From Chiloscyllium plagiosum (taxonomy: Eukaryota): 64,000 nt of DNA. The stretch lies in NCBI RefSeq assembly GCF_004010195.1, contig NC_057719.1, forward strand, positions 30,501,054-30,565,053. Direction: 5' to 3'. Below, piece by piece: positions 428 to 63,111 of the stretch. A program made the translations under genes and the position numbers. Within the stretch, counting starts at the first letter, position 1, and every line of letters begins with the position of its first letter. The notes beneath the pieces are model-generated. The model ran no database searches. It was not told the origin of the DNA and saw only the letters and a program-made list of their open reading frames with translations.

Positions 428-1587
428 GATGGCCAAATGCTGATCTTGCCAGTAACACCAAATTGCACAAAAAAGACAACTAAAAATAATCAGACATGAT
501 ATAAATGCCTTGCTTTGTTATTCATGAAACAGCAACAGATAAAATACTGAAATGAAACCAAAACAGAAATTGCTGGAGATGCTTTCAGTATTTGTGGAAA
601 GAAAACAGAGGCAGTTTTTCAGGTCCAGTGATCTTTCATCACAAACGAACATTTTTGGGAACATGATTCATTTGAAGTCATTCCATGCAACACTCCCTCA
701 TTACTACACTGGAGTATCAGCTAAGACTTTTGTGCTCATGTACTGGAGTGAGACGAACTGCAACATTCAGAAACAACAGTGCTGCCAATTGAATCACAGC
801 TCGTCATAGCTGTCATTGCTTTTCCTAAAGCTTGAAAGATAAAGAAATTGAAAGCCAACACCTTTGTTGAGTTGACTATTCAAATTAGATATCAGTAATA
901 CCTGTCCCATATTCTGGAATTGAAAATAGCTGATGTCAGTCATAGTGACCATGAAGCTACTAATTGTCATGAAACTAGCTGGTTTATTGGTCATGACTAT
1001 TGAGTACAGGAGTTGGGAGGTCATGTTGCAGCTGTACAGGACATTGGTTAGGCCACTGTTGGAATATTGCATGCAATTCTGGTCTCCTTCCTGTTGGAAA
1101 GATGTTGTGAAACTTGAAAGGGTTCAAAAAAGATTTACAAAGATGTTGCCAAGGTTGGAGGATATGAGATGTTGTATAGGCTAGGGCTGTTTTCCCTGGA
1201 GCATCAGAGGCTGAGGGGTGACACTATAGAGGTTTATAAAATCATGAGGGGCATGGATAGGATAAATAGACAAAGTCTTTTCCCTGGAGTGGGGGAGTCC
1301 AGAACTAGAGGGCATAGGTTTAGGGTGAGAGGGGAAAGATATAAAATGGATCTAAGGTGCAACTTTTTCACGCAGAGGGTGGTACGTGTATGAAATGAGC
1401 TGCCAGAGGAAGTGGTACAATTGCAACATTTAAAAAGCATTTGGATGGGTATCTGAATAGGAAGGGTTTGGAGGGATATGGGCCAGCTGCTGGCAGGTGG
1501 GACTAGATTGGGTTGGGATATCTGGTCAGCATGGATGGGTTAGACCAAAGGGTCTGTTTCCGTGCTGTACACCTCTATGACTCTATG
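428..1587 (+). mobile_element. Chimeric insertion: ~560 bp of non-CR1 DNA plus a CR1 3' end (~986-1587) with a (CTCTATGA)2 tail, TSD ACCTTG
   Basis: ACCTTG at 422-427 and 1588-1593. CR1 C-terminal motifs LYRTLVRPLLEYC and LERVQKRFT. Confidence 0.8.
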
Positions 1588-2253
1588 ACCTTGCAGACGA
1601 CAGACCAGTGAGACTGACTGGTCTGTAATTGCTGGGGATTTCCCTATTTCCTTTCTTGAAGAGAGGAATTACATTTGCCTCCCTCCAGTCCTCAGGTACG
1701 ACTCCGGTGGAGAGCGAGGATGCAAAGATCTTCGTAAGCGGCAAAGCAATCACATTTCTCGCTTCCCAAAGCAGCCGAGGACAAATCTGGTCTGGCCCTG
1801 GCGACTTGTCAATCTTAATGTTTGTCAAAAGTTTCAGCACATCAGCTTCCTCAATCTCTATCCGTTCCAGCATGCTTACCTGCTCCTCAATGGTTTCATT
1901 CACTACAAGGTCCTTTTTGTTAGTAAAGACAGAAGCAAAAAACTTGTTTAGGGCTTTCCCTACCTCCTCAGGCTCTATACACAAGTTCCCTATGCTATCC
2001 CTGATCGGCCCTACTCTTTCTTTGATCATTCTCTTATTCCTCACATTTGTGTAAAATGCCTTTGGATTCTCCCTAATCCTTCCTGCCAAGCCTTTTTCGT
2101 GCCCCCTCTTGGCTCTCCTCAGACCATTTTTGAGCTCTTTCCTCGCCTGCCTGTAATCCTCTAGAGCTGAGCAAGACCCTTGCTTCCTCCACCTTACGTA
2201 AGCTGCCTTTTTCTTTTGACGAGAAGCTCTTCTGCTCTCGTCATCTAAGGGTC

Positions 2254-2344
2254 CTGAAGAAGGGCTTATGCCCGAAACGTCGATTCTCCTGTTCCCTGGA
2301 TGCTGCCTGACCTGCTGCGCTTTTCCAGCAACACATTTCCAGCT
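2254..2344 (+). mobile_element. Short Penelope pLTR-derived insertion with a minimal hammerhead ribozyme core
   Basis: CTGAAGA-A-GGGC-TTAT-GCCC-GAAAC-GTC at 2254-2281. It interrupts CR1 ORF2 and is flanked by TCCT. Homologous to the end of the Penelope element at 24103-24235. Confidence 0.85.
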
Positions 2345-4241
2345 CCTTTATCTTACCCCTTCTTGTCTGTCTCAGAGGAACACATTTATGTATCACTCGC
2401 AACAACTGAATCCAAAATGGCCTCTCCCCTCGTCGGCCTGTCAACATACTGAGTTAGGAAACCCTCCTGAACAGCCCTTACAAAAACAGCTCCTTCCAAA
2501 CCATCTGCTCGAAGGAGGCTTAAAGTCACCCATTACAACAACCCTACTACATTCACACTTTTCCAAAATCTGCCGACTTATGCTTTCTTCAATCTCCCTG
2601 CTGCTATTGGGGGCTGTTCCCTTACTGTTCCTAATTTACACCCATACTGACTCGGTAGGCAGACCCTCCTCGACAATGGTAACTTCTGTAGCTGTGATAC
2701 CCTCTCTGATTAGCAGTGCTACACTCCCTCCTCTTTTTCCCCCACTCCTTATTCTTTTTAAATGTTCTAAACCCTGGAACATCCAGCAACCATTCCTGCC
2801 CCTGAGAAACTCACGTCTCTGTTATGGCCAAAACATCATAGCACCAGGTACTGATCCATGCACTAAGCACATCACTTTCATTCCTGATACTCCTTGCATT
2901 AAAGCAAACACACTTTAACCAATCCCTTGGTTCTTTCCCAGGAAATTCCTTCCCACTGGCTGCGCTACCTCTTGCTATTGCCTCATCTCCATCAACTCTC
3001 ACCACTGGTATATAGCTCAGGTTCCCACCCCCTGCCATACTAATTTAAACCCTCCTGAACCACTCGAGCAAACCTTCCATCCAGGACGTTGGTCCTCTTC
3101 CAGTTCAGGTGCCACCCGTCCTTCATGTATAGGTCCCACCTTCCCCAGAAGGCATCCCAATTATCTACATATCTGAAGCCCTCCCTCCTACACCAGCTTC
3201 GCAGCCACATGTTAAGCTGCGCCCGCTCCCTGCTCCTCACTTCGCTGTCTCGTGGCACCGGTAGTAAACCCGAGAACACTACTCTGTTGGTCCTGCTCTG
3301 CAGCTTCCAACCTAACTCCCTGAGATCACTTTTTATATTTTCGATACTTTTCCTGGCTATATCATTGGTGCCAATGTGTAACACAAATTCTGGCTATTTG
3401 CCCTCCCCTTTCAGAATCTTATACACCCGATCGGAGACATCCCGGACCCTGGCACCAGGGAGGCAACATACCTTCCGGGAGTCCCGATCCTGACCACAAA
3501 ATCTCCTGTCAATTCTCCTAACAATCGAGTCTCCTACCACTGGAGCTTTTCTATTCTGCCCCCTTCCCTTCTGGGCCACAGTGTCAGGCTCAGTGCCAGA
3601 GAACCGACCACTATGGCTTTTTTCTGGTAGGTCATCCCCCCCAGCAGTAGCCAAATCGATATCTCTGCACTGTCTGTCTCCTTTCCTCCCATCTATCCTT
3701 ATCCTGAGCCTCAGGAGTGACTAACTGCCAGTAACTCCTCTCAATTACCCCTCAGCCTCCTGAATGATCCACAGTTCATCCAGCTCCAGCTCCAATTCCC
3801 TAACATGGTTTTCAAGGAGCTGGAGCTGGGTGTACTTCCTGCAGATGTAGCCAGCGGAGAAATGTGTCATGTCTCTCACCTGTCACATTCTGCAGGAGGA
3901 GCAAGCAACTGCCCTAGCATCCATACCCCACTTATCTGAATGCCCACACAATACTAAACAAGAAAGCTTAATTCAATTGCTATAAAATCAAGCAATAAAC
4001 TTATATTCAATAAAGGAAGTTTAGAAATGAACCGTACCTTATTAACCTAGTTAGAGGAGGAGGACGGGTGGGGGAGACACTGCAGTTCTAGTTGTAGCCG
4101 CCTTGCTAATATATATAGTCACTTACTTTCCTTCCCGGCAGCCCCTCTGGTCCGCGTCACTTCCACTACTACTCCCGCTCCTTCTGTGGAGGAGAGACAC
4201 TGCTGGCCACTACCGGTAAGTAATGTTTAAAAATCTCCCTT

Positions 4242-4680: not shown

Positions 4681-4739
4681 TTAGCTGCAGCCTTCCTAGT
4701 TCGCCTTACCTCCGCTGCTGCTCCCACTCAAAAAAAAAA

Positions 4740-7700
4740 TTCTAAGGGGTGTTTATTCTTTTTAGCTTGTGCTTGCGATGCAGCTCTAGCTGGGAGAAGT
4801 GGAAGTGGTTGAGATGGTTAGATGCCTATCTATGGGCAGTTCGGGATGGGTAGTTGCCCTCTCTGGGCAGGGGGTGAGTTCCCCTACTCAACGCTATTGG
4901 CGCTTTATATGTTGCTTTATTTTCTGGTTTTTGTTTTTTATTTTTAATAATTTTGTATGTTTATCAAATGTAGTGGGTTTAGTTTATGTAGTTTTTATAT
5001 TTGGTGGACCATGCGACACTAAGGCTCAGCAATTTGTGGTTCGTGTTCCTCCTCTCTGGAATTTAAATGTAATTGCAGAAAATTATGGCGAATGATTTGA
5101 TTAAATGGTGTACCTGGAATATCAAGGGAAGTCACTCACCAATTAAGAGGAAGAAGGTACTCTTGAGCCTTAGAAAGAAAGTGGATATTGCTTTGTTACA
5201 GGAGACACACTTGGATGACAAGGAGCATCTGAAATTACAGCAAAATGGCTTTGACCGAGTTTATTTTTCATCATTTAATACCAGAAGTAGGGAGTGGCTA
5301 TACTGGTTAGGAAATATCTCTCATTTAAATTGTTGGAATGTGTTAAAGACACATAAGGGAGGTTTGTAATTCTTAAAGCCTTGATAAATGGAAAAGAATA
5401 TGGTATTTTAAATGTTTATTGTCCCCCAGCTCATCCTCTTAAATTCTTGGTAGATGCTTTTTCTAAACTGAAAAGTCTCAAGTCTTGGCACATCATTATA
5501 GGGGGAGATTTTAACTGCCTCATGGACCCCACAGGTTGCCTAAAGGTCCCTTGATACCCTCTGCACAAACTAAACAGTTATTGGGTTTATGTGAGGAATT
5601 AGGGTTGGTGGACGTCTGGAGGTATCTCCACCCTACAGGTAGGGATTTCACGTTTTTCTCCAATCCGCATAGATGTCATATGAGGATTGACTTTTTTCTG
5701 ACTTCTGTGGTAACCCTGGATCTGGTGGCATCCTTTACGAATGGTAATATTGCCATCTCTAATCATACTCCAGTGTACCTCATGGTTAAGATTAAGGATG
5801 TGAGAGTGGATTCAAGGAACTGGTGAATGGACCCCTTTATTCTCATGGACAGTAAGTTTGTGGAGTATTTCTCTGGGGGATTTCGGGCATTCCTAGACAT
5901 CAACATAGGTTTGGTTGATAGCTCATCTGTTCTCTGGGAAAATGCCAAAGCTTATGCCAGGGGGTTAGTTATTTCATATTCCACCAGTAGGAAGCGGTAG
6001 AAGGGTGAGCAGCAACGTCTCCTTAAAGCACAGTTGAAGGCAGCCGAGAAGGCCTATTTTGACAGACCCTCGTTGGTCAAACTACAGAAGATTACGGCAC
6101 TGCAGTCTGCAATAAATTCTGTGCTCATGCAGACAGCAAAGAAGGAGCTGGCTTTTGCAAAGCAAAGATTATGTGAGCATGGTGACAAGCCAGGCAAATA
6201 CTTAGCATACCTTGCCAGAAAGAGAACTGGCCCACAAACCATTACAGCAATTCGGGAAGGGTCTGGGAACCTAACGTGATTCTAAAAAGATTAATGTGGC
6301 ATTCCAGAGATTCTACTCTAAGTTATATCAGTCTGAGAATTGTGAGAAGGGGCAGGCCAAAATGGAATCATTTTGTAGAGATCTGAAGCACCCGGGTGTG
6401 ACTCCCGAACAACAGTCCTTTCTCAATGCCCATTATCAGAGCAAGAAGTGCAGGAAACTGTGAGGCAGCTTCAGAGCGGAAAGGCACCCGGTCCTGACGG
6501 ATTTCCCAGTGAATTCTATAAGGAACTTATAAGTATACTGTCAGGCCCGATGCTGAATATGTTTAATTATTCATATAGTCATGATTGTCTCCCACCGTCT
6601 CTGAGAGAGGCCAATATTTCACTTATCCTTAAAAAAGGGAAGGATCCAGAAGACTGTGCTTCATACAGGCCCATCTCGCTCTTAAATGTGGACTTTTAAG
6701 ATCCTCTCCAAGGTTCTCGCGTTAAGGCTGGAGACGGTGTTACCCCCTATTATTAAAGAGGGTCAGACGGGCTTCATAAAGGGTCCTCCAATAATGTTAG
6801 GAGGCTACTTAACGTAATTCAAGCATGCCAACAGCAGTCAAGACAGGGATTGGTGATTTCTTGAGATGCAGAGAAGGCATTTGACTGAGTTGAGTGGCCG
6901 TACCTTTTCTATACTCTCAACTGGTTTGGTCTGGGCGAAGTTTTCATAAGATGGGTAAAGGTTCTCTACAGTATACCTCTCGCGGCAGTCATTACCAACG
7001 GGGTATGATCAAGCAATTTTAATATTTCTAGGGGCAGCCGGCAGGGCTGTCCCCTTTCACCATTACTTTTTACGTTGGTGATTGAACCGTTGGCAGAAGC
7101 CATTCGTGGGGATCTCAATATATCAGCTCCAAAAGTGGGATCAAAATTACATAAGATCTTGCTGTATGCAGATGATGTTCTAATTTTCTTGACGAATCCA
7201 CCAGTTTCAGTGCCTTGCCTGATACAATGCATTCACGCGTTTGCCGCTTTTTCAGGGTATAAGATTAATTTTGCTAAATCAAAGGCTATGCCTATGGGTG
7301 GTCTTACGAAAGAGTTGGCTCTTGAGAGTGACTATAGATTCCCATTTAGGTGGTCAAAGGGGGGGTTTTGTGTATTTGGGCATATTCATTACTCCAGTTC
7401 TGGAGTGGATGTTCAAAGCCAATTTTACTCAATTATTTGAAAAAATTACACAAGATCTCCAAAGATGGAAGGCACTTCCAGTCTCATGGTTGGGTCAGAT
7501 AGCACTTATTAAGATGAATATTCTCCCTCGTTTCCTATACCCTATACAGATGCTCCCCCTGATTTTCAATAAACAAACACACAGGAGACTGAACGGTTGG
7601 TTCAGCTCCTTTACCTGGCACCATAAACGGCCCCTCATTAAATTAGCCAAACTGCAGTTGCCTCACAGATTGGGGGGGAGTAGAACTTCCGGACATTAAA

Positions 7701-9232
7701 TTTTACTAATTAAGCTCGCTTTTGACCTACGTGAGTGATTGGGTTTGTGGGGACCCTCTTTCAATATGGCTAGATATCGAAGCCTCCCAGGCAAGGTGCC
7801 CCCTTACCAGTTTGCTGTTTTTGGACAAGGTGAGGACAGTTAGGGAATATTGCCATAACCCAATAGTCATCAATACTGTTAAAGCATGGAGGGCAATTCA
7901 GCAGAGGGAAGGTAATATTGGCAAAACGTCTTTGTTTACACTTTTAATGGGTATGCCGGGTTTTCAACCGGGTATGATAGATTCAGGATTTAAACATTGG
8001 GCAGCTAGAGGTATACCTTGCATGGGTGATTTATTTCAGGGAGATGTAATGATGTCCTTCGATCAGTTAGTACGGAATTACGAGTTACCTAATAGAGACC
8101 TCTTTCATAGAACATAGAACATAGAACATAGAAGAATACAGTGCAGTACAGGCCCTTGGGCCCTCGATGTTGCCCACACTTTTGACTGATCCCTACAAAT
8201 CTGACATAGAAAGAGGGGTACTAAGGGCTAAGAGTACATTCTCTGTCAGTACTTTGTATCACCAACTGGGGGGTGCCACCTCAGATGACTCTGATCGAAT
8301 CAGCAAGATGTGGGAAAGAGAGCTGAGTGTTAAGTTTCTTCAGAGGCATGGGAGGATATTTAGGAGAATACAAGGAAGATATCAATTTGCAATAGGACCC
8401 ATGCTTTACAGTTGAAGATTCTCCACAGGGTCCACTTAGCCCCAGACAGTTTGTCAAAATTTAAACCAGGCGTATCTTCAGCATGTCCTAAGTGCAAGGT
8501 CTGCACGGGCACTCTTACCCATTGTCTTTGGTCTTGTGACAGGCTTTAAACATATTGGAACGCTGTGGCGGGTGCAATGGAGAGGATTTTATGTGTAGAG
8601 GTGGAGAAGGACCCTATTTCTCTCCTTTTGGGCCTACCCCATTGTATTTCCTGCAGACGCGCATAAGAAAAAACTTTTCAATATTCTTACGTTCTGTGCA
8701 AGGAAGAATATCTTGCAAGGTTGGATATCAGAAAATCCCCCAGGCCTGTCGGGTTGGCGGAAGATTGTTATGGAGCATATTCCCCTGGATTTTCTCACAA
8801 ATACGATACACCACAAAACTGAGAATTTTTACAAGACATGGCAACCCTTTTTGAAATACCTGGACACAGATTTATCTACCACACTAACAAGGGCTTTTAT
8901 ATAGCCGTAACGATTGTGTTTCATGAGTCCAATATCCAGGGAGGAGGGACTATGAATGTATGAGTGTTTTGTTTGGCTGGGTTGAGTTATTACTATTTAT
9001 TTGTTTATTGTTAGGTATTTATTTATTTAGTTAAATAGCTAGTTCAGGTTTAATTTTATACTCCTCTATATATGTTTATACATTCATATAGGAGGGTGGG
9101 TTGGGGACCTTTTTTCATTATTTGGGTTTAGTTTTGTACTATTTTTGTACTGTTTCGAACTGCATTGTTTTGTATTTGTTGTAATATTTAAAAATCTACT
9201 TTTTCTTAATAAAAATATATTATTAAAAAAAA
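4740..9232 (+). mobile_element. L1-clade LINE: inter-ORF spacer, disrupted ORF2 (5085-8904), 3'UTR and poly(A)
   Basis: APE WNIKG...LLQETH...GGDFN...RIDFFL; RT KAPGPDG, QGCPLSPLLF, LLYADD; L1-type KMNILPRFLY; C-terminal CPKC...H..W.C; AATAAA at 9208 and an A-run at 9225-9232. Several stops and frameshifts. Confidence 0.92.
8106..8173 (-). mobile_element. Tiny CR1 3'-tail fragment with (TTCTATG)n inside L1 ORF2
   Basis: (CATAGAA)3-4 followed by cagtgcagtacaggccc...gatgttgcc, the reverse complement of the CR1 tail seen at 22085-22142. Confidence 0.75.
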
Positions 9233-9475: not shown

Positions 9476-10315
9476 GCCTTCCTGCTGCTCTTTAAGCTGT
9501 GCTTGTTTTAACACAGTGGTTTTTTGTTTATCTGCTTGTCATACATTGCCCAATTATTTACAACCTTGGCACCAATAAATCTCTATTTGATTATCAGAGC
9601 ATCTGCTAGAGTTCTCTAGAGGCTATGCTTGTAACACACAGAACTTTGATCACAAGGGGCATTCATTTATCACAGAGGTAGAGGAGCCATACTATGCTGA
9701 TTGACTTATCCAACATGACCAAGAAACTTATGTTCCCAATCCCCCAAAAGGTTTGCTGCTCCCAGATAAGTCCTGTACATGAAAGCATCAGTGCTCTTCG
9801 CAATATTGACCTTAAGTGCATGTAAACATCTGGAGTGATTATCAGCCGTCAACGCTTTCAAGAATGGAATGCAAAAATCTAGAGATATAACAAGATAGCA
9901 TGAAGACAAAGGATTTTGTAAACTTATAATACATTTATTTGATGCCAGGACTTCAAAAAAATATTCATACCGGTGTGTCCCAACTGAAAACAAACCTTAA
10001 TTATTTGCTATATGGTTTGATGCTACATCCCTCTACTGCCAAAGCTGGATTGGTGGAAGTCTGCTGACTGCTTTGTTGCCTTGCTACAGACGACATTAGC
10101 ATTCGTACTCAGATGTCTCTAGACCTGGAAGGCCCCAACTTGCTGGGGATTCCTGCACAGGAGCAATGTCTTCAAACTAAGCAGATGAAAATATTTGGAT
10201 TCCTGGCAGAGTGAGTTGATGCAGCTGGCCATCACTGGAGTATCCTGACAGAGTGATTTCTGGTGCCATCAGTCACTCCTTCTCCCTGTCAATCTGCAAT
10301 ATGATCGAATTGAAT

Positions 10316-10622
10316 CATAGAATCCCATAGTGTGGAAAAAGGCTATCTGGCACACTGAGTCTGCACTGACCTTCCGAAGAGTACCCCACCCATCTTATCC
10401 CCATAGCCCCACATCTGCCATGGCTAATACACATAACCTACACATCCTGAGACACAACAGGGCAATTTAGCATGGCCAATCCATTTATATTTGGACTGTG
10501 GGTGGAAACCAGACATGGGCAGAATGTGCTAACTCCACACAGACAGTCATCCAAGGCTGAAATCAAACCTGGATGCCTGGCACTGTGAGGCAGCAGTGCT
10601 AATTGTTGAGCCAACATACCTC
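10316..10622 (-). mobile_element. HE1/V-SINE, diverged
   Basis: ggcaatttagcatggccaat core, gcactgtgaggcagcagtgct tRNA-like head and a CR1-type tail. Confidence 0.75.
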
Positions 10623-10929
10623 CCTTACCTCTTGAGGGGATGATGATGATTTATTTATTGTGACTTGCATTTTACAGTGAATAATACAGTAAGATAGTGA
10701 AAAGCTTCAACAGTTTCCACAATCTACTGCCATTTTGAATAGTTTAAAAGGGATAAAAGATATAACTGAGAGTCCTGAACCAGCTCACCAACAACACCCG
10801 TACCGCCACCCCTTCTCCACCGCTACCTGCACCAGACCCACCAACGTAGGAGTTGCCACTCGACTAAGGTGAAATCCTCTCATTAAGCCAGTGAATTAAA
10901 GCATTTATGGCTCAAGTCAAGAAGTGAAG

Positions 10930-12299: not shown

Positions 12300-14000
12300 C
12301 AAAATTAATAAGGAAGAGTTCTTGGATAGATGTTAGCACTAAAAGTTATCAAGGCACCAGGATGATGAGATGCTCCAAGAATTTTAAAGAAAATAAGGGT
12401 AGAAATTGCAGAGACACTTGCCTTTATATTTCAGTCTTCTGTGGAGTCTGGGTAGGTGCCAGAAGACTGGAAAACTGCAAATATTATGGTCTTATTCAAA
12501 AAGTGTTGAAGGGATAATCCTAGCTAGAACAGATCTAGAACCAGGGATTAGCTAGTCGCATGGTAAAATGTGAATTGCTTAGGAAGAGTCAGTGTGGATT
12601 AAATTAGAAATCATGTTTAACGAACTTGCTGGAATTTTTTGAAGATGTGGTGAAAGGGTTGATAATGGTTTTCCTTTTGACATGGTATATATGGATTTCC
12701 AGAAAGCATTTCTTCAGTGCTTCAGGTCCTGGTCAAAAAGGAACAGTGGCAACATGGATACAAAATTGGCCGAGTGATAGAAAACAGAGAGTAACGGTCA
12801 ATGGATTTTTTGGGGGCTGGAAGAAGCCTTGTAGTGGATCTCCCTGGGGTTTGGTATTGGGACTCTTGTTTTTTATGATACAAAATAATGATTGGGACCT
12901 TGGTGTGCAAGGGACAATTTTCAAATTTGCAGATGACACTAAACTTGGAAGAATCGTAAACTGAGAGAAGAATAGTGGGGAATTCCAAAAGGACATTAAC
13001 AAGTTGGTAGAGCCAGTAGATAGGAGGCAGATTAGGTTCAATGCAGAGAAGTGTGAGGTGATGCATATTGGTCAGAAGAACACTGAAAGACAATATACAG
13101 GAACAATTCTAAACGGGGTCTAACAGCAGAGGGATCATTGTACAGATCATTGAAATTGGCAGAATAGATGGAGAGAACAGTAAATAAAACATGTGGTGTT
13201 CTCGGCTTTAATAATAGTGACATAGAGTACAAGAACAGGGAGGTGATGTCGACAAGACACCTAGTAGAACTCCTCTGGAGTATTATCCACAGTCGTGGAT
13301 ACTGCATTAGAGAAAATATGCAAATACATTTGAGGGAGCGCGGAAGCGATTTACTAGAATGGTTCCAGGTAGAAGAAATTTCAGCTATGAGGACCTTTTG
13401 AAGCAATGGGAGAAAGAAGAGATAACTCTTCATCAGAACAAAGATGTTCTGATGAAGAGTCATGGGACTCAAAGCATTAACTCTGCCTTTTTCCCGGAGA
13501 TGCTGCCATATCTGCTGAGTTTTGCCAGCAATATCTGTTGTTGATTCAGATCTCCAGCACCTGCAGTTCTTTGCTTTACTTTATTGAAGAAGTTGGGATA
13601 GTTCTCCTGGAAAGAAGAAAGCTGAGAGGAGATCTGAGTGAGGTTTTCAAAATCATAAGTGGGCTAGGCAGAGTAGGTAGAATGAAGCAGTTTTCACTTA
13701 TAAAAGGAACAAAAATGAGAGGCTTCAGATTTAAAGTGATATGTAAATGAAGCAAAAGTAATGTGAAAAAAAACTTTTCCACACAGCGAGTTTTTAGGAT
13801 ATGGAACACACTACCTGGAAATGTGGTGGAGGCAGGTTCAATTAAAGCATTCAAGAGGGCATTGGAAGGTTCTTTGGATAGTCATGATGTGCAGGGATGT
13901 AGGGAAAAGGCAGGAGATTGGGCCTTGCTAATAGAGCCAATGCCAGCATGATGGGCCAAATGGCCTCCTTATGCACCATAATAATTCTGTGATTCTGAGA
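12300..14000 (+). mobile_element. Old CR1 ORF2 3' half, degenerate, with a Penelope-derived hairpin insert
   Basis: NLLEFFE, WIQNW..DRKQRV, KFADDTKLG, RRKLRGDL; tail attctgtgattct. Confidence 0.8.
13404..13583 (+). mobile_element. Penelope-derived short element with a 16-bp perfect hairpin and a degenerate hammerhead
   Basis: ACTCTTCATCAGAACA (13425-13440) and TGTTCTGATGAAGAGT (13445-13460); CTGATGA-A-GAGTC-ATGG-GACTC-AAAG; TTGAAG on both sides. Confidence 0.7.
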
Positions 14001-15379: not shown

Positions 15380-15612
15380 GAAAAACAAAAGAACTACGAA
15401 TGCTGTAAATCAGAAACAAAACCAGAAGTCACTGGAAAAGCTCAGCAGGTCTGGCTGCATCTGTGAAGATAAATCAAAGTTAACGTTTCAAGCCCAGTGA
15501 CCCTTCCACAGAACTCCAGTTATGAACTCCGGACCCAAAACGTTAACTTTGATTTCTCTTCACAGATGTGGTCAGACCTGCTGAGCTATTCCAGCAACAT
15601 TTGTTTTTGTTC
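15380..15612. repeat. Penelope-derived fold-back (two inverted pLTR arms)
   Basis: Arm 15416-15500 (ctggaaaagctcagcaggtctgg...aaagttaacgttt) is the inverse of arm 15530-15611 (aaacgttaactttg...cagacctgctgagctattccag). Confidence 0.8.
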
Positions 15613-18184: not shown

Positions 18185-18257
18185 TACTTTCCTACACGAA
18201 TTAAAAGGCAAATTGGAGTCAATAATTAAAATAAATAATGCATAGACACAAATAGAT

Positions 18258-22934: not shown

Positions 22935-23770
22935 AAGGTAAACACTTGTTATTCCACTCAACCACCTCCAACACGACAGAACCAACCATCTTCTCTTGAC
23001 ACTCATGGTCATTATCATCTCTGAATTCACAAACTTCAATATCTTGAGGGTGAACAGAAACTAACTGGACCAGTCATTTAAATAATGTGGCAACAAAAGC
23101 ATATCAGAGTCTGAACATTCTGTGAAGTGTAATTACTTCCTCACTCCTCAAAGCATGTTTACTATACACAAAACACAAAGTGGGAGCATGACAGAATACT
23201 TTCCACTTACCTGGATGAGTGCAGCTCTGATAATGCTCAAGTAGACAACAACATCCAGGAGAAAGTGATTATGAAGGAGAACCAGATCAGACTCAAAACA
23301 TTAACTGTTTCCCTCTCCACAGATGCTGTCATACCTGCTGCACACTCTATTTCTATTACGACAATCTGCTTAATAGGCACCACACCACATCCACCAATGA
23401 CTAGAATGCAGTGGGAGCAGTGTATAGTATCTAAAAGATCTACTGCAGCAACTAACTATGGTTCCTTTACAATATCTTCCAAGTTTGTTACCTCTGCTAC
23501 CTTGAAGGACGGGCAGCAGACGCATGGAATCATGACCATCTGCAAGTTCCCTTCAAAATCACATGCTGATGATCACATACTGATATGTATATTGATATGA
23601 GTTCCTTCATTGTTGCTGGGGTAAAATCTGGAATATCCTTCCTAGAACACAGTGGATGCACTTATATCAGATTGAAGGCAGCGGCTCACCATCACAATCT
23701 CAACTACAATTAAGCATGGACAACAAACATGCTGAGCGACACTCATATCCTAGAAAGAAATGAAAAAAAC
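22935..23770 (+). mobile_element. 3' half of the L2/CR1-group LINE (same family as 26541-29006) with an inserted Penelope-derived fragment at ~23265-23350
   Basis: cagaaactaactggacc, ctggatgagtgcagctc and caagttcccttcaa blocks shared with other copies. Confidence 0.65.
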
Positions 23771-24102
23771 CTCACCACCTCAGAAGTGCATTTTGCTGTA
23801 CCAATGCCAAATTTTGTACCTTCTGCATTGCCTCAAAAAGTAAAGAATTGAAGAAAGATTTGTATATGTGCCCATACTTGAGGAGCACAGTTGATATTGT
23901 AAACATAATATACTTATGATTGCTAAAGAGAGATTTCCTCCCAAATGTATGGATTAGATTCAAATGCAGTCCCCCTATAATAAAACAATGTTACTCAAGT
24001 TTTATATTTTTCTTTTCTTGATGTTTCTTGCTTTCAGGCAGATGACACAAAACTGGGAAGAATTGTAAATTGTGAGGTGAGCCATGCTCCAAAATGAAAT
24101 TA

Positions 24103-25596
24103 GGAGAAAGTGAGGCCTGCAGATGCTGGAGATCAGAGCTGAAAAATGTGTTGCTGGAAAAGTGCAGCAGGCCAGGCAGCATCCAAGGAGCAGGAGAATC
24201 GACATTTCGGGCATAAGTCCTTCTTCAGGAATGAGGAAGGTGTGCTAAGATAAAAGGTAGGGAGGAGGGATTGGGGGAGGGGCGTTGGGAATGCGACTGG
24301 TGGAAGGAGGTTAAGGTGAGGGTGATAGGCCGGAGAGGGGGTGGGGGCGGAGAGGTCGGGAAGAAGATTGCAGGTCAAGAAGGCGGTGCTGAGTCCGAGG
24401 GTTGGGACTGAGATAAGGTCGGGGGAGGGGAAATGAGGAAGCTGGAGAAATCTGCATTCATCCNNNNNNNNNNNNNNNNNNNNNNNNNNNNNNNNNNNNN
24501 NNNNNNNNNNNNNNNNNNNNNNNNNNNNNNNNNNNNNNNNNNNNNNNNNNNNNNNNNNNNNNNNNNNNNNNNNNNNNNNNNNNNNNNNNNNNNNNNNNNN
24601 NNNNNNNNNNNNNNNNNNNNNNNNNNNNNNNNNNNNNNNNNNNNNNNNNNNNNNNNNNNNNNNNNNTTTTGGAACGCTGATAGGGGAGGGGAGGGGAGGG
24701 AAATATATCCTTGGTGGTGGGGTCTGTTTGGAGGTGGTGGAACTGACGAAGGATGATACGATGTATCTGGAGGTTGGTGGGGTGGTAGGTGAGGACCAGT
24801 GGGGTTCTGTCCTGTTGGCGATTGGAGAGGCGGGGTTCAAGGGCGGAGGAGCGGGAAGTGGAGGAGATGCGGTGAAGAGCACCGTCAACCACGGCTGAGG
24901 GGAAATTGCGGTCTTTGAAGAAGGAGGCCATCTGGGTTGTTCGGTATTAGAATTGGTCCTCCTGGGAGCAGATGCGGCGGAGGCGAAGGAATTGGGAATA
25001 TTGGATGGCATTTTTACAGGTGGCAGGGTGGGAGGAGGTGTAATCTAGATAGCTGTGGGAGTCGGTTTATAGCAAATGTCCGTGTTGAGTCGGTCGCCCG
25101 AGATAGAAATGGAGAGGTCTAGGAAGGGAAGGGAGGAGTCTGAGATGGTCCAGGTAAATTTGAGGTCGGGGTGGAAGGTGTTAGTAAAGTGAATGAACTG
25201 TTCAACCTCCTCGTGGGAGCACGATGTAGCACCGATACAGTCATCAATGTAGCGGAGGAAAAGGTGCAGGGTGCTGCCAGTGTAGCTGTGGAAGATGGAC
25301 TGTTCCACATATCCGACGCAGGCATATCTGCCCCTGGCTACTCCTTTGGTTTGGAGGAAGTGGGAGGATTGGAAAGAGAAGTTGTTCAGAGTGAGGACCA
25401 GTTCAGTCAGTTGAAGGAGGGTGTCAGTGGAAGGGTACTGGTTGGGTCAGCAGGAAAGGAAGAAGCGGAGGGCTTTGAGGCCTTCGTGATGGGGGATGGA
25501 AGTGTATAGGGACTGGATATTCATGGTGAAGATAAGGCGTTGGGAGCTGGGGAAGGGAAAATGAAGATAAGGCGTTGGAAGCCAGGGAAGTGAAAA
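24103..25596 (-). mobile_element. Penelope-like element (RT and 3' pLTR with hammerhead motif) inserted into an old CR1; N-gap at 24464-24666
   Basis: FLRYIDDCIG...NTFHPDLKFT...LPFLDL...YKPT; PLVLTYHP; minus-strand CTGAAGA-A-GGAC-TTAT-GCCC-GAAATGTC at 24228-24201. Confidence 0.9.
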
Positions 25597-37910: not shown

Positions 37911-38800
37911 CTGCAAAATTAAGACAAAGAAGTAGATTATCAATTTTAGTATTGAAAAATTTTAGATCTGTTTAATTTAGTAAAATAAACACATTAGCAT
38001 CTATATGGGGTGGGGTTTTATTGGGATGATGCTGGTCCTGACAAGCTAGAGTTCAAAAAAAACAATTCCTAGCAATTTCTGCTTTTGAAGCTGGAGTTAA
38101 TCCTGCCTCAGCTGTTTGGAGAGCACCAGTAACATCTTATATCCATTTTCCAGCTGAGTTGCTGTCAGATTCCTGACCTTCAAGAGCTGCAAGTCAATCA
38201 GAAGGCTAGCAGCTCTTCAGTCCCAGTTGTGTCGTTAGGAGCAGTGAAGCAAATGGAGTCAGAGGCTACTGTGCTCAGATAAAGAGGTCTCAGCAACGCT
38301 GTATGATGTTTGATGATGACAGGGAGTTGAATTGCCATGGGGCAGTATTTGCCACGGGGTCAGTATTTGCCACAGGAGATTTCTCTGTGAGCCAGAAATC
38401 ACAAATTAGGAGGCAATAGTCTCATTCCTAAACCCATAGGTAGGCTGCTAGATTTTAAAATGCAGTTTACAAATGTGGCAGAGCACCCATCTGCCACAAC
38501 AAAAATGCCAACAATGACAGGACAGATCCTTAAGTGGCCACAAACACAATTGGTCACTAGGAAGGAATGCCATTCTTTATGTTCCGTGCTGCTATCAGAA
38601 TATTGGGGTAGCAGAAAATTGAGGAACATGCAGACTTGCACCCTCTCCCAATTTTTTGTGGTCTTTCCTCCCCCTATATTGCAGCTTTCATAAAAGTCAA
38701 CCCACTGAATTAGCAGGTATAGGAATGTAATTAAGTGTGTTAAATGTTCCTTGACTAATTCCAGCAATTATAACTTCTAGATTATTACAAGATACTACTG

Positions 38801-39475
38801 GATGTAGGTTTGCTTGCTGAGCTGGAAGGTTCATTTCCAGACTTTTCATCACCCTAAGTAACATCTTCAGTGCGCCTCCAGGCGAAGCACTGTTCACGAT
38901 TCCTGCTTTCTATTTATATGTTTGGGTTTCTTTGGGTTGGTGATGTCATTTCCTGTAGTGATTTCATTACCTTTTTTTTCTCTGGGGTGGTAGATGGGGT
39001 CTAACTCGATGTGTTTGTAGATAGAGTTCCAGTTGGAATGCCATGCTTCTAGGAATTCTCATGCATGTCTCTGTTTGGCTTGACCTAGGATAGATGTGTT
39101 GTCACAGTCGATGTGGTGTCCTTCCTTATCTGAATGTAAGGATACTAGTGAGAGAGGGTCATGTCGTTTTGTGACTAGTTGGTGTTCATGTATCCTGGTG
39201 GCTAGTTTTCTGCCTGTTTGTCCAATGTAGTTTTTGTTACAGTTCTTGCATGGTAATTTGTAAATGACATTAATTTTACTTGTTGTCTGTATAGGGTCTT
39301 TCAAGTTCATTAGCTGCTGTTTTAGTGTGTTAGTGGGTCTGTGGGTTACCATGATGCCAAGGGGTCCGAGTAGCATCTGTAAGGGTGATGAAACGTCTGG
39401 AAATGAACCTTCCAGTTCAGTGAGCAAACCTACATCCAGATTCTAAACCTGAGCTATAAATCTTCTCAAGACTTA
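38801..39475 (-). mobile_element. Penelope (GIY-YIG) 3' fragment with an inverted pLTR at the other end and a 14-bp TSD
   Basis: NVIYKLPCKNCNKNYIGQTGRKLATRIHEH; inverted copies at 38798-38855 and 39382-39439; TSD ACAAGATACTACTG at 38787-38800 and 39476-39489. Confidence 0.9.
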
Positions 39476-39764: not shown

Positions 39765-40100
39765 ACAGCACGTTGGCTCAGTGGTTAGCACTGCTGCCTC
39801 TCAGCGCCAGGGACCCAAGCTCGATTCCACTATCGGGCAACTGTCTGTGTGGAGATTGCATTTTCTCTCCATGTCTGCATTAGTTTCCTCTAGGTGGTCT
39901 TGTTTCCTCCCATAGTCCAACGATGTGCAGGTTAGGTGAATTGGCCATGTTAAGTTGCCCATAGAGTTCAGGGATATACAGACTATGTGGATTAGCCATG
40001 GGAAATACAGGGTTACCGGCATAGGGTGGGGAGATGGGTCTGGAGAGGTGTGGACTCGATGGGTCGAATGGGCTGCTTCCACACAGTAGGGATTCTATGA
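39765..40100 (+). mobile_element. HE1/V-SINE
   Basis: tggctcagtggttagcactgctgcctc head; tail gggattctatgat. Confidence 0.85.
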
Positions 40101-40749: not shown

Positions 40750-42300
40750 CAACTGATAGGGAATGCAGACGATTGGAAAATTGCAAATGTATATACCCTT
40801 CTTCAAAATGTGAAGGAGTCAAAAAAATGCTAACAAAAAGCCAGTTAGCTTAACATCTGGCATTAGGAAAATGTTAGAGTCTATTATAAGGGATGCAATA
40901 GGTCTACATTTAGAAATACAAATTGTAATCAAGCAGAAGCAACATACCTGACAAATTTATTAGAACTCCTTGACGAAGTAACATGCAGGATAGGTAAAGG
41001 TGTAATATATTCAAAAGTCATTTGATAAAGTATTAGACAGAAAATTATTTAAGATGATAAGAAGGTATTGGAGGTCTTATATTGTCATGGATAGAGTACT
41101 ATTCAGAATGGAAACGTGTAAGTAGTAGGGTGCCTTAGGGATCAGTGCAGAGGCCACAAATATATGCAATATATACATTAATGACTTCACACTGAAAGTG
41201 AACATAATGTATCCAAGTGTGTGGACAACATAAAAATAGGTTGGAAAGCAAGTAGTAAGGATGCCACAAAGAATCTGCTGAGGGATTTAGACAGTGAGTG
41301 AGTGGGCAAAAGTCTGGCAGAGGGAATGTGGGAAAATGTGAGTTTATGCATTTGACAGGAAGAATAAAGAGGTGAATATTATTTAATGAGGAAAGATTGC
41401 AGAAAACTGCAGCACATAGAGATTTGGTGAGCTCATACATGAATCATAAAACGCTAGTAAATAAGTTTAGTAGGTAATAGGGAAGGCAAGTGGACTACTG
41501 GCTTTTATTTCAAAGGGAATTGAGTATAAAACAAGGAAGCTCTCGCTAAAATAAAAATCAGAATTGTGGATGCTGGAAATCTGAAACAAACAGATTGCTG
41601 GCAAAACTCAGCACATCTGACAGCATCTGTGGGGACAGTGGAGTTCACATCTTGGGTCCGGTGACTTTTCATCAAAATCTTACAAAAACTGCATAAGTAT
41701 GGTTTTGATGAAGAGTCATCAGACCAAAGATGTAAACTCCACTTTCTTCCCACAGATGGTGCCAGACCATACTTAGAATATTGTGAACAGTTTTGGTCCT
41801 TTTATCCAAAACAAAATTTATTGGTATCAGATGCAATCCAGAGAAGGATCATTAGATTGATTGTAGGTATGGGGGGTTTTACTTATGAGGAGAGATTGAG
41901 TAGGCTGGATTTGTATGCAATGGAGTTTAGAAGAATGAGGGAAGATCTTAATAAAATACAAAGGTTCTTAGGGACTTGACAAGGTAGAAGTGGAGAGGTT
42001 GTTTCTCCTTGAGGGACAGTCTAGGACCAGAGAGCATAATCTCAGATTAAGGGGTTGCCTATTTAAAACAGATATGAGGAGGAATTTCTTTTTTCAGAGG
42101 GAAATCTGTGGAATTCATTATCGTATAGAGCTGGGAAAGTTAGTTTTTTTAAGTGTATTCAAGGCTGAGATGGACAGATTTTTAATTAGTATGGGTATCA
42201 AAGATTATGAGGACAAGTCAAGGATTATCAGATCAACCATAATCTCACTGAATGACTCAACGGCCCTAACAGGTTATTTCTGCTCTGTGTCTTTTGGTCT
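40750..42300 (+). mobile_element. Old CR1 ORF2 3' half with a Penelope-derived fold-back at ~41547-41769
   Basis: gattggaaaattgcaaatgt, NLLE, RP.LEYC..FWS, RRMR.DL; inverted arms 41615-41678 and 41701-41768. Confidence 0.75.
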
Positions 42301-42769
42301 TACTTTTTCTTTACTTGATTTCTTCTTTCCTTAAACAGGACAAGCTTTTGATTTTGTAGGGATTGGCAGATTTTGTAATGAAATTAGTTATTAGCTACTT
42401 TGACATAGTGATACTTATTTCTCTAAACGGAAATACAGATAATTAAACAAAAAGGGGGTAGAAATTGGTTTCCTTTGCACCCTATCTTTGAGTTTCGAAT
42501 GTACTCAAAGCACACCAGTTAAGCAGTGAGTGGCCTGTTACTGCTATTCCCAGGGATTGGTCCTAATACTAAAATTGCAGCACAGAGTTTTCAGGTATTT
42601 AGTGTAAGCGTCTAAAGGTAGTTATTAACATATTCAAAGAGCTCAAAGCCCATTCAAAAACAGCTTTAGGTATTTTAGGCCTCGGGATTCTTCATCAGCA
42701 GCCAATTAAAGGCAAATCTTTTCTTTAAGAAATATCCAGCAGAATCAGGAGGAGAACTCCCAACTTCAT

Positions 42770-44950: not shown

Positions 44951-45347
44951 TAAAGTTACGGTTTACTCTGCACTCCTACATGGATAACTCAGGGGTATAA
45001 GAATTTCAGGAACGCAAATTTCAAAGGAATGAGAAATAAATTGACCACAATAGTCTAGACTTAACTGTTAACTATAGAAAACTTTAGACTAACATTAGGA
45101 TGTATTAAAAAAATTTTGTACCATTGCTACATACTAAGTATACACTCCTAAAAAGCAAAGTGGACACTTGTAGTTCTGCAGCCATCATTAATAAATGAGG
45201 GAAGAGTCAGTAACAAGCTAAAATAACAATAAGTGTAAAAGGAAAGATGCAATCCAGTAGATTAGTAAAGCCATTAAAAAAAAACAAGGGAGGAGAAAAT
45301 TAAGAAATAAGGTGCAGAAAAAGAACCAAACATAATTTGGTAAAAAG

Positions 45348-45587
45348 GGTAGCATGGTGGCTCAGCAGTTAGCAGTGTTGCCTCCAAACACCAGGGACCC
45401 GAGTTTGATTCCACCCTCGAGCGACTGTTTGTGTGGAGTTTGCACGTTCTCCCCAAGTCTGCATGGGTTAGCCATGGGAAATGCAGGGTTACAGGGATCG
45501 GGGAGAGGAGGTAGATCTGGGTGAGATGCTCTTTGGAGGATTCAGTAGGATGAATGGCCTGTTTCTATACAGTAGGGATTATATGAA
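45348..45587 (+). mobile_element. HE1/V-SINE with an internal deletion
   Basis: gcatggtggctcagcagttagc head; tgtggagtttgcacgttctcccc core. Confidence 0.75.
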
Positions 45588-47264: not shown

Positions 47265-47353
47265 GAAGAAGGGTTTATGCCCGAAACGTCGATTCTCCTG
47301 TTCCCTGGATGCTGCCTGACCTGCTGCGCTGTTCCAGCAACACATTTTCAGCT
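47265..47353 (+). mobile_element. Short Penelope pLTR-derived insertion, near-identical to 2254-2344, hammerhead missing its first CU
   Basis: gaagaagggtttatgcccgaaacgtcgattctcctgttccctggatgctgcc...cagct. Confidence 0.85.
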
Positions 47354-51004: not shown

Positions 51005-51290
51005 TTAGATTAGATTACTTACAGTGTGGACCAACAAGTCCACACCAACCCGCCGAAGCGCAACCCACCCAGACCCATTCCCCTACATTTACCCCTTCAC
51101 CTAACACTACGGGCAATTTAGCATGGCCAATTCACCTAACTTGCACATTTTTGGACTGTGGGAGGAAACCCGCGCAGACACAGGGAGAATGTGCAAACTC
51201 CACACAGTCAGTCGCCTGAGGCAGGAATTGAACCTGGGTCTCTGGCGCTGTGAGGCAGCAGTGCTAACCACTGTGCTACCGTGCCGCCCA
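51005..51290 (-). mobile_element. HE1/V-SINE, young
   Basis: (TTAGA)2 tail, V-domain core and gcagtgctaaccactgtgc head. Confidence 0.9.
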
Positions 51291-56536: not shown

Positions 56537-56655
56537 TGCGAAAGTGAGTACTGCTGGAAATTAGAGTCAAGAGTGTGGTGCTGGAAAAGCACAGCAGGTC
56601 AGGCAGCATCCGAGGAGCAGGAAAATCTACGTTTCGGGCAAAAGCCCTTCATCAG
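56537..56655 (-). mobile_element. Short Penelope pLTR-derived insertion with an intact minimal hammerhead core and an 11-bp TSD
   Basis: TSD GATCTGCTTTA at 56526-56536 and 56656-56666. Minus strand reads AGATC-CTGATGA-A-GGGC-TTTT-GCCC-GAAAC-GTA-GATTT. Confidence 0.9.
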
Positions 56656-56873
56656 GATCTGCTTTAGTCAAACATTTGGTGAGTGGGACTAATAATGACA
56701 TTTATTTTGAAGACTAGAAAGTTAGAGAGATAACTGAAACAGAAATGGAGAACTAAAGGGAAAGAGAAAGAAATCAAAAACGGCAAATATGACAGTCTAG
56801 CCATAACAACAGGAAAGTATCAGAGAAGAACAAAATATGTACAAGACATTTAGACTTTTATTTGAATACATAC

Positions 56874-61480: not shown

Positions 61481-61669
61481 CAAGCAACTTCTCAATAACG
61501 GAGTCAGAAGGTTCGGGTTCATGGAGATTGCCCAAACAAGCTGATCAAAAGTATTCGTTTCTAAAACCTCAAAGCAACTCTTCCACCATTTCATTATACA
61601 CTGACATACAGACAACTTACAATATTTTATTATTCACAGGCAACATTCACACCCAAGGTGCATGTCATG

Positions 61670-61986
61670 TTAGATTAGATTAGATTAATTACAGAGTGGA
61701 AACAGGCCCTTCGGCCCAACAAGTCCACACCGCCCCACCGAAGCACAACCCACCCATACCCCTACATTTACCCCTTACCTAACACTAGGGGCAATTTAGC
61801 ATGGCCAATTCACCTGACCTGCACATCTTTGACTGTGGGAGGAAACCGGAGCACCCGGAGGAAACCCACGCAGACACGGGGAGAACGTGCAAACTCCACA
61901 CAGACAGTTGCCTGAGGCGGGAATTGAACCCGGGTCTCTGGCGCTGTGAGGCAGCAGTGCTAACCACTGGGCCACCGTGCCACCCA
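61670..61986 (-). mobile_element. HE1/V-SINE, full-length and young
   Basis: (TTAGA)3 tail, complete core and tRNA-like head with B-box (gaattgaacccggg) and A-box. Confidence 0.92.
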
Positions 61987-62934
61987 TGTGTGGTATGTCT
62001 CTCTCTCGCACAAGCGCACAGAAAAGTATGCACATGATCAACTTTCTTCTGTCACAACTCATTGGTTTAGTGTGCTGAAAATCAAGTCACACCACTTCCA
62101 GAGCCATCAGCAATCTGAAAAGATTTATTCAAAATATCCAAAGACGCCATTTACCTGACTGACAAACTCGGTTAAAAGTAAATACTCATCAGGTTTTTGT
62201 ATTTGACCACAAAGTAACTATTTGTTAAGTAAAGGTAAATTTACTGTAGTTCTACAGACCATAGGCTGCTGTCTCATTAGAAAGATGACCGGAAGTGGTT
62301 TAATCTGAGGGTCACCTTGCTCAGGCTAGGGTAGAGACTGAGAAAGAAGGTCCTTCATGGTAACCTCAGCCGGTTTGGAAAATGAACCCATGCTGTTGGT
62401 CTCACTTTGCATTGCAAACCAGCTATCCTGCCAATTGAGCTAACAAACATCCCCACTTATTATGAACAAATTGTCTTTACCCAATGGCAGAAAAGAAATA
62501 CAAATTGCGAATTTATAATTCTACAGCTTAAACTTTACCTCTTCTTAAATTCTCCCTTTACAAACTGACACACACAAAGAAAGCCAAGGACATTAAGACC
62601 ATAAGAATAAGGAACAGGGGTAGCTATTCAATACGATCATGGCTGATCCGCCCAAGGCCTCAACTTCTCAATTTTGCCAGCTCTTCAAAGATCTCAATTC
62701 CCCAATATTTAAAAAAATTTATCTACCTCCTCTAAATACTTTCAGTGATCCAACCTCAACTACTCTCTGGGGTAGACAATACCAGACATTCACGACCATC
62801 TAGGAGAAGAAATTCCTTTGCATCTTAGTTACAGAATAAAGGGACACTTATGTAAAACTATGTTTCTTAATTTGAGATTCCCCCATGAATTGAAACGTGT
62901 CAACATTTATCCTGTTAATCTCCCTGGATTGGGC

Positions 62935-63111
62935 AAGGTCAAAAATGACACGACACCAGGTTACAGTCCAACAGGTTTATTTGAAAACACAAGCTTTGGG
63001 AACTTCGCTCTTTCTTTAGGTGCGAGTCTGAAGAAGGAGCAAAGCTCCAAACCTTGTGTTTTCAAATAAATCTGTTGGACTATAAACTGGCATCGTGTGA
63101 TTTTTAACCTT
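62935..63111. repeat. Fold-back element from a second Penelope-like family with degenerate hammerhead cores, inside a CR1 3' fragment (~62595-62930)
   Basis: aaggtcaaaaatgacac...gtccaacaggtttatttgaaaacacaag is the inverse of cttgtgttttcaaataaatctgttggac...gtgtgatttttaacctt; CTGAAGA-A-GGAGC-AAA-GCTCC-AAAC at 63028. Confidence 0.75.

What the first reader, a model, noticed from the sequence alone, without database searches (positions are those of the whole stretch)
536..63111. A population of short non-coding retro-insertions built around minimal hammerhead ribozymes
Seen: about ten loci carry the motif CTGANGA-A-[4-5 bp stem II]-GAAAC-GTH or a decayed version. They are at ~615-655(-), 2254(+), 13449(+), ~15485-15512(-), ~23270(+), 24197-24232(-), 38838-38872(-), 41705(+), 47265(+), 56623-56660(-) and 63028(+). 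They belong to at least three sequence families. Most are 90-230 bp, non-coding and independently inserted, several with TSDs. Established: Penelope-like elements carry minimal type-I hammerheads whose short palindromic stem III (here ACGT or AGCT) works as a dimer. An extra A between A9 and stem II is also known in a natural viroid hammerhead. Inference: these are retrozyme-like non-autonomous units mobilised by Penelope RT/GIY-YIG, whose coding partners are also in the window. They may be an under-described ribozyme-bearing SINE-like class in sharks.
Basis: partly seen in the sequence, partly recalled or inferred. Interest (0 to 1): 0.7.

Follow-up and report, generated by a model that had tools for sequence, protein, structure and literature searches.

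The report
Hammerhead-tipped Penelope retroelement end pieces
The short ribozyme-bearing inserts are real, but they are the end pieces of Penelope-type jumping genes, a known kind, and many of them start at one exact base just before the ribozyme, which probably marks where the element's RNA begins.

Summary
All 11 loci exist and belong to four families, but only 2 of 11 keep a full minimal hammerhead (2254+, 56655-), 4 of 11 keep the core boxes, and 2 of 11 sit on coding Penelope-like element (PLE) debris (1.4 kb RT fragment at 24.1-25.6 kb; GIY-YIG fragment at 38.8-39.5 kb). The short copies are 84-92% identical to the end of the coding copy. They are PLE terminal modules (hammerhead + tail), single or head-to-head, not tandem retrozymes or tRNA-derived SINEs. 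Reads laid on the coding copy show that ends are not random: 3' ends at 24101-24103 and 24143, 5' ends at 24232, four bases before the hammerhead core and not at the cut site. That base is +1 of a perfect initiator, so I favour copying of the uncut RNA from the internal priming site to its 5' end (about 55%); trimming or annealing at an ATT motif is the main rival. Cleavage was not tested. The class is published (Cervera 2014; Li 2026 preprint), and this scan reported the same thing on other DNA of this genome many times.

The parts
547..646 (-). L1, family B end module, strongly decayed (C3 position 642 reads G; stem III lost)
2252..2345 (+). L2, family A short-tail module with intact minimal hammerhead (core 2254-2260, stem II 2262-2273, GAAA 2274-2277, predicted cut after 2281), inserted in a CR1 LINE with junction microhomology
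13422..13583 (+). L3, family B long-tail module (C3 13449; GAAA box mutated) with short inverted 5' arm 13422-13440, inserted in a CR1 LINE
15385..15612 (.). L4, family B head-to-head palindrome; minus arm starts at 15515 (C3 15511), plus arm at 15518, both 4 nt before the C3 position, 2 nt between; long tail on one arm only; candidate 11-bp TSD 15366-15376/15608-15618
23266..23345 (+). L5, family B remnant, core largely lost
24102..24232 (-). L6, family A long-tail module at the 3' end of a coding PLE copy; C3 24228, predicted cut between 24201 and 24200; 24232 is the pile-up of 5' ends and +1 of an initiator match; 3' ends pile at 24101-24103 and 24143
24233..25560 (-). Body of the 5'-truncated, broken Neptune-like PLE (RT fragment 24686-25560, assembly gap 24464-24666, C-rich 3' region)
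38798..39475 (-). L7, family D truncated Poseidon-like PLE: hammerhead end (C3 38870), TATA-like box 38911-38918, GIY-YIG fragment 39062-39385, inverted arm 39382-39439 with 36-nt tail; exact 14-bp TSD 38787-38800/39476-39489
41547..41768 (.). L8, family B head-to-head palindrome, decayed (C3 positions 41675- and 41705+), spacer of about 20-25 nt
47265..47353 (+). L9, family A short-tail module that starts at G5, so C3 and U4 of the core are missing
56537..56657 (-). L10, family A long-tail module with intact minimal hammerhead (C3 56655, predicted cut after 56628); exact 11-bp TSD 56526-56536/56656-56666 overlapping its first bases
62935..63111 (.). L11, family C head-to-head palindrome (C3 63019- and 63028+; 8-nt centre; AGCT-type stem III, GAAA box mutated in both arms)

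Best explanation
These are terminal modules (minimal hammerhead plus the 85-126-nt stretch down to the reverse-transcription start sites) of at least two clades of autonomous Penelope-like elements, inserted by the elements' own RT/GIY-YIG protein. Shown: identity with the end of a coding copy, fixed 3' ends about 40 nt apart, a fixed 5' end 4 nt before C3, templates that were not cut by the ribozyme. Inferred: the element's RNA starts at that base (initiator +1); because PLE RT primes inside the RNA, close to its 5' end, it often copies only tail-to-cap, a strong-stop-like product of about 90 or 130 nt, which is inserted alone, or twice head-to-head when both target strands prime. No separate non-coding master and no ribozyme cleavage is needed; the hammerhead is a passenger that then decays.
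For: Short A copies are 91.6%, 88.5% and 84.1% identical to the end of the RT-coding copy, whose relatives carry RT, a CX4CxxC linker and GIY-YIG; L7 carries GIY-YIG (Pfam E 0.004, below the curated cut-off). Reads and contigs laid on 24050-24463: depth in RNA run X21 is about 1200-1800 over hammerhead and tail, 785 at 24218-31, 230 at 24232-45 and 55-99 at 24274-24455; 5' loose ends at 24232 number 250 (X14), 452 (X2), 156 (X21) with unlike, AT-rich flanks (agreement 0.31-0.42), plus rows at 24217 and 24223 whose loose letters carry on to the same base; 3' loose ends at 24101-24103 number 276-1183 per row. No row at the cut site 24200/24201 is among the 18 shown. 11 of the 15 joints shown are strand switches with one side at 24213-24236. 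24232 is +1 of YYANWYY, one of 5 such matches in 364 nt (initiator consensus recalled). In L4 both arms begin at an A 4 nt before C3. Palindrome centres differ among L3, L4, L8, L11, so arms are made at insertion. PMC11167929 (main text read): RT of an anole PLE primes internally at two sites 111-118 nt into the ORF, both DNA strands are cut and extended, uncut RNA is the main substrate; PMC8557442 and PMC2377424 (passages): the TSS lies in the pLTR in the two PLEs tested.
Against: No direct TSS data: one search listed no place where many molecules begin, and a poly-A single-cell library is a poor test; run X22 laid no reads. 24232 is also the start of an ATT, the motif the anole PLE nuclease prefers. 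The extra G expected from copying a cap is inconclusive: first loose letter is the expected one in the two DNA rows at 24232 (where the templated letter is excluded by construction) but not in X21 nor in the three rows clipped at 24217/24223 that run on to that base. In the window only L4 (both arms) and L6 have the A at -4; L2 and L10 start at -2 within TSD microhomology and L9 at G5. DNA contigs show a smaller excess (peak to peak 5.9-fold in X14, 4.6-fold in X2) and are no copy number; L6 has a private indel near 24243 that lowers depth just upstream. Only family A was tested with reads; 1047 loose-end rows and 66 joints were not shown.
Confidence: 0.55

Rival explanations
1. Same PLE end modules, but the fixed 5' end is made at the DNA or protein level: the nuclease trims at, or the cDNA anneals through, the ATT just before the core, or RT stalls at the upstream edge of a protein-bound hammerhead.
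For: 24232 starts an ATT; the anole PLE nuclease prefers 5'-ATT-3' near its own ORF-pLTR junction and the protein assists the ribozyme (PMC11167929, main text); L2 and L10 junctions show microhomology with the target.
Against: Other ATT sites at 24199 and 24147, in the most covered part, are not among the listed 5' end peaks; family B arms in L4 start at the same -4 offset on AGTT, not ATT.
Confidence: 0.22
2. One reading: discrete non-autonomous, SINE-like or retrozyme-monomer families with their own source loci, re-transcribed and mobilised in trans.
For: Both ends are fixed and the module is in several-fold excess over upstream PLE sequence; internal priming needs no special 3' end, and Drosophila Penelope has an internal promoter (PMC2377424, passages), so a short copy could be copied again; rare head-to-tail joints of 127-129 nt exist (2 of 15 joints shown, 1-2 contigs each).
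Against: Short copies match the end of a coding copy and show the same two tail lengths; no tandem units; no tRNA head; palindrome centres are all different; 9 of 11 loci lack a full hammerhead, as expected without selection on copies.
Confidence: 0.16
3. Ordinary randomly 5'-truncated PLE debris; the clustering is an alignment artefact.
For: L6-private differences clip alignments at 24217, 24223 and near 24243; L9 starts inside the core; PLE copies are known to be heavily 5'-truncated (PMC8557442, passages).
Against: Loose ends at exactly 24232 run into unlike AT-rich sequence in three runs; depth does not recover upstream in raw reads; all nine short loci start within about 5 nt of C3.
Confidence: 0.04
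4. Units are defined by ribozyme self-cleavage and spread through circular RNA, as proposed for retrozymes.
For: L2 and L10 fold into stems I and II with an unpaired core; stems show compensatory changes among families.
Against: Copies span the cut site and start about 32 nt upstream of it; no listed end peak at 24200/24201; paired motifs are on opposite strands.
Confidence: 0.03

Closest known systems
Minimal hammerheads (min-HHR) in pLTRs of metazoan Penelope-like elements (Cervera and De la Pena 2014, PMC4209133; abstract, results, discussion read)
   Same: Type I, extra base between 9 and 10.1, G10.1-C11.1, palindromic 15.2-16.2, many families per genome, mostly single motifs 'probably related to truncated PLEs', some pairs on opposite strands.
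   Different: No shark is named in the parts read, and no fixed 5' end before the core is reported there; stem II here is 4-6 bp rather than 7-8.
PLE insertion architecture: pLTR, inverted 5' pLTR, optional 30-40-bp tail, 8-10-bp TSD (Arkhipova 2013 PMC3846280; Craig 2021 PMC8557442; passages read) and internal RT priming of Poseidon_Ac (Frangieh 2024 PMC11167929; main text read)
   Same: Two 3' ends about 40 nt apart, tail on one arm only, head-to-head inverted arms, TSD of 11-14 bp, microhomology junctions, uncut RNA as template; C3-to-end distance 126 nt here against about 119-126 nt derived from the anole element.
   Different: Here the unit is often only the 90-130-bp module with no ORF body; those papers describe longer copies and do not, in the passages read, map 5' ends to one base.
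Non-LTR retrozymes of animals (Cervera and De la Pena 2020 PMC7229834, passages; Li et al. bioRxiv 10.64898/2026.07.22.740005, introduction to discussion read, supplements closed)
   Same: Non-coding, type I hammerhead, derived from PLE pLTRs, found in one chondrichthyan; dispersed monomers are reported.
   Different: Retrozymes are defined as head-to-tail tandems of 150-450 bp that self-process to circles; here copies are single or head-to-head, shorter, and mostly with broken cores.

Membership tests
Endonuclease-bearing Penelope-like element (end module) | Continuity or near identity with the 3' end of an RT + GIY-YIG coding element | tested here: met
   Family A 84-92% identical to L6 end; L6 RT relatives with GIY-YIG; L7 GIY-YIG. 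Family B only by tail homology to A; family C has no coding partner in the window.
Endonuclease-bearing Penelope-like element (end module) | Inverted 5' arm, optional 30-40-bp tail, TSD of about 7-15 bp | tested here: met
   Five loci with inverted arms; ends at 24102 and 24143; 36-nt tail and 14-bp TSD at L7, 11-bp TSD at L10.
PLE minimal hammerhead | CUGANGA, extra base, stem II, GAAA, palindromic minimal stem III, NUH, short stem I | tested here: met
   Complete at 2 of 11 loci, core boxes at 4 of 11; family-wide variants listed in reads fall on N7 and loop II (40 of 125 rows shown).
PLE minimal hammerhead | Covariation in stems I and II | tested here: inconclusive
   9 arms of families A-C: 75.7% of cells paired, 6 of 9 pairs with two-sided change (6 of 500 shuffles as high), but the control slid by -1 scores 67.6% and a higher covariation score (0.340 against 0.321); sample small and related.
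PLE minimal hammerhead | Self-cleavage as dimer or with protein help | not testable with these tools
   Cofolding two copies did not give the stem III dimer as lowest-energy state, which neither shows nor excludes activity.
Non-LTR retrozyme | Two or more head-to-tail units each with a complete hammerhead | tested here: not met
   None of 5 tandem arrays in the window holds the motif; head-to-tail joints are 2 of 15 shown, in 1-2 contigs.
Non-LTR retrozyme | Unit-length linear and circular RNA ending at the cut site | tested here: inconclusive
   No start or end pile-up in a poly-A single-cell run; such a library would miss circles.
SINE | Head derived from a Pol III RNA (tRNA, 7SL, 5S) | tested here: not met
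   No tRNA gene in the window; no such Rfam match; the head is the hammerhead itself.
SINE | Independent lineage with its own source loci | not testable with these tools
   No genome is held for this window; no subfamily phylogeny possible.

The most novel reading that the evidence does not exclude
In shark PLEs the hammerhead occupies the first 36 nt of the capped mRNA, and internal priming near that 5' end turns the element's own mRNA into a factory of exact tail-to-cap inserts, single or palindromic, that outnumber longer copies several-fold: a SINE-sized repeat class made without any SINE master, whose genomic 5' ends map the PLE start site, and whose ribozyme would act as a decapping switch rather than as a unit-length processor.
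Probability: 0.4. Interest if true: 0.55.

Novelty: new member of a known kind. Interest (0 to 1): 0.3.

Why it matters
The class itself is known, so the finding as stated is ordinary. The base-exact 5' end matters more: how PLEs form pLTRs, inverted arms and solo ends, and what their hammerhead does, is still open. If the pile-up marks the start of the RNA, thousands of fossil junctions in shark genomes give a direct record of the PLE copying cycle, and a clear prediction for the existing in vitro system (capped RNA should yield tail-to-cap products, and cleavage should remove the cap). It would also warn annotators that these repeats, which look like SINEs or MITEs, are PLE by-products.

Tried and rejected
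Whole-genome analysis: no genome held. Rfam scan: no hammerhead model matched, 9 unrelated weak hits. Metagenome scan with a 19-nt tail motif: 81 loci, none with homology beyond chance (best 34 nt), so no extra copies for an end map. Earlier-finding look-up by sequence returned nothing. No indexed RNA holder was listed; raw RNA run X22 laid no reads (no test); table of molecule starts and ends was empty. Relaxed descriptor is not above chance. Cap-derived extra G: considered, inconclusive. Dimer cofolding uninformative. TSD search gave only chance-level repeats at L1, L5, L6, L8, L9, L11. A start codon in frame with a PLE protein inside the module could not be shown: no homologue N-terminus matched the tail peptide motif. 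MITE or miRNA reading of the palindromes rejected: arms are unequal, centres differ, TSDs are 11-14 bp, and arms are PLE ends. Seven paper searches found no report of PLE 5' ends piling at the hammerhead's front edge or of these shark families; Repbase, Dfam, subscription papers (such as Luense et al. 2017, recalled) and the supplements of the 2026 preprint could not be seen and may hold them.
Full report
Observation. A structured descriptor (core, extra base, stem II, GAAA, minimal stem III, NUH) keeps two, 2254+ and 56655-, against one hit in 30 shuffled windows; allowing one core mismatch gives 16 hits against a mean of 10.25 in 8 shuffles. The other listed loci are real, but are recognised by sequence homology over the downstream tail. 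Rfam has no matching model. Per-arm parsing shows broken C3, A6, G12 or stem III in all copies but L2 and L10; L6 has a stem II mismatch and a wobble in stem III, L7 a broken stem III, L9 lacks C3 and U4. By hand-summing coordinates the modules cover about 1.6 kb, 2.5% of the window.

Families. A (2252-2345+, 24102-24232-, 47265-47353+, 56537-56657-) copies are 84-97% alike. B (547-646-, 13422-13583, 15385-15612, 23266-23345+, 41547-41768) has a longer stem II and a tail homologous to A. C is the palindrome at 62935-63111 and D the insertion at 38798-39475. Four loci are head-to-head palindromes centred just upstream of the core, with centres of 2 nt (L4), 8 nt (L11), a few nt with a short arm (L3) and about 20-25 nt (L8). 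L2 and L3 interrupt CR1-type LINEs whose paralogues in the window lack them, which shows independent insertion.

Coding partners. L7 carries a GIY-YIG fragment, an inverted arm with a 36-nt tail and a 14-bp TSD; I call it Poseidon-like from recalled sequence features and the lack of the linker just before the nuclease motif. So two of the 'non-coding inserts' are textbook 5'-truncated PLEs, and the short A copies are the same sequence as the end of one of them.

End mapping. No genome is held, so I laid public data on window 24050-24463 at 80% likeness: contigs of runs X14 and X2 and raw poly-A single-cell reads of X21 and X22 (X22 laid nothing; X2 has another species label). In X21 depth is about 1200-1800 over the hammerhead and tail, 785 at 24218-24231, 230 at 24232-24245 and 55-99 at 24274-24455. 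In contigs the tail is 3.6-7.0 million against 0.17-1.19 million upstream (X14) and 9.4-20.2 against 0.8-4.4 million (X2); these are not copy numbers. Of 18 loose-end rows shown (1047 hidden), 3' ends lie at 24101-24103, 24143 and 24148, and 5' ends at 24232 (250, 452 and 156 records; flanks unlike each other and AT-rich). Rows at 24217 (X14, X2) and 24223 (X14) are the same ends clipped early by differences private to L6, since their loose letters continue to 24232; the X21 row at 24223 looks like one locus that runs further; rows at 24138 are a tail variant. No row lies at the cut site 24200/24201. Twelve of 15 joints shown are strand switches, 11 with one side at 24213-24236; two are head-to-tail joints of 127-129 nt in 1-2 contigs.

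Mechanism. The two 3' ends match the two internal RT start sites that define the PLE tail; in the anole element both target strands are cut and extended, and uncut RNA is the main substrate (PMC11167929, main text read). The copies here span the cut site, so their templates were uncut. The 5' pile-up base is +1 of an initiator match (one of five in 364 nt), and both arms of L4 begin at an A at the same offset. In the two PLEs where it was mapped the start site lies in the pLTR (PMC2377424, PMC8557442; passages and section 10). I infer that RT often primes at the site near the 5' end of the mRNA and runs to the cap, giving 90- or 130-nt products that are inserted singly or, with both strands primed, head to head. 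Against this: the same base starts an ATT, the nuclease's preferred motif; L2 and L10 junctions are microhomologous with the target; the cap-derived G is seen as the commonest first loose letter in two rows but not in four others; no start-site data exist here. I put this reading at 0.55, DNA-level trimming or stalling at 0.22, true non-autonomous source loci at 0.16. That the loci are PLE end modules at all I hold at above 0.9.

Ribozyme. L2 and L10 fold into stems I and II with an open core. Across nine arms of families A-C, 75.7% of cells pair and 6 of 9 pairs show two-sided changes, but a slid control does nearly as well, so covariation is suggestive only. Family-wide variants in the reads include N7 and loop II, the free positions. 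Activity was not tested; opposite-strand pairs cannot form the dimer in one transcript.

Comparison. Solo and opposite-strand minimal hammerheads from truncated PLEs were described in 2014 (PMC4209133, parts 1-2 of 4 read). Inverted arms, tails and palindromic junctions are standard PLE features (PMC3846280, PMC8557442, PMC8969392; passages). Animal retrozymes are tandem by definition (PMC7229834, passages) and were tied to PLE pLTRs, one chondrichthyan included, in a 2026 preprint (parts 1-3 of 5 read; supplements closed). The loci here work like PLE products, pass the PLE tests, and fail the tandem test for retrozymes and the Pol III head test for SINEs. Seven searches found no paper mapping PLE 5' ends to the front of the hammerhead; repeat databases could not be searched.

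Earlier notes of this scan. 103 notes on this genome fit 'hammerhead Penelope'; the 8 shown describe the same modules, and two also suggest that the RNA begins there. My start-site reading was noted before that look-up; these notes are unchecked and are not counted as support. One pointed me to PMC3846280.

Verdict. Real, partly as described; new members of a known kind; interest 0.3. The part worth a follow-up is the base-exact 5' end.

Noticed in passing
window 42670-42700 (-): Possible twelfth, very decayed family B head with intact CTGATGA box (profile E 0.16; weak tail alignment).
   Followed up: partly
window 38911-38918 (-): TATA-like box 48 nt upstream of C3 in the Poseidon-like copy, suggesting that family D starts its RNA about 20 nt before the core, unlike family A.
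   Followed up: no
window 24102-24143: A strand-switch joint between the long-tail end and the short-tail end is seen in 33 contigs of X2 and 2 of X14: a recurrent fold-back at the tail that my model does not explain.
   Followed up: no
window 24100-24228: Rare head-to-tail joints of 127-129 nt: possible seeds of true tandem retrozymes elsewhere in these genomes.
   Followed up: no
window 37323-37961 (-): 212-codon open frame with no Pfam match, probably a host exon; the host gene was not identified.
   Followed up: partly
window 18239-22048 (+), 2-3901 (-), 12926-13996, 25578-26374: CR1-type LINE copies (endonuclease and RT matches), one nearly full length and broken; two are interrupted by hammerhead modules.
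   Followed up: partly
window 7009-8117 (-): Fragments of another, L1/Tx1-like RT frame (judged by eye; not scanned).
   Followed up: no
window 10314-10626, 28126-28365, 34361-34522, 39758-39968, 45345-45469, 51005-51290, 61675-61986: A second abundant short repeat family of about 200-310 bp without the hammerhead motif, probably a conventional shark SINE (recalled, not tested).
   Followed up: no
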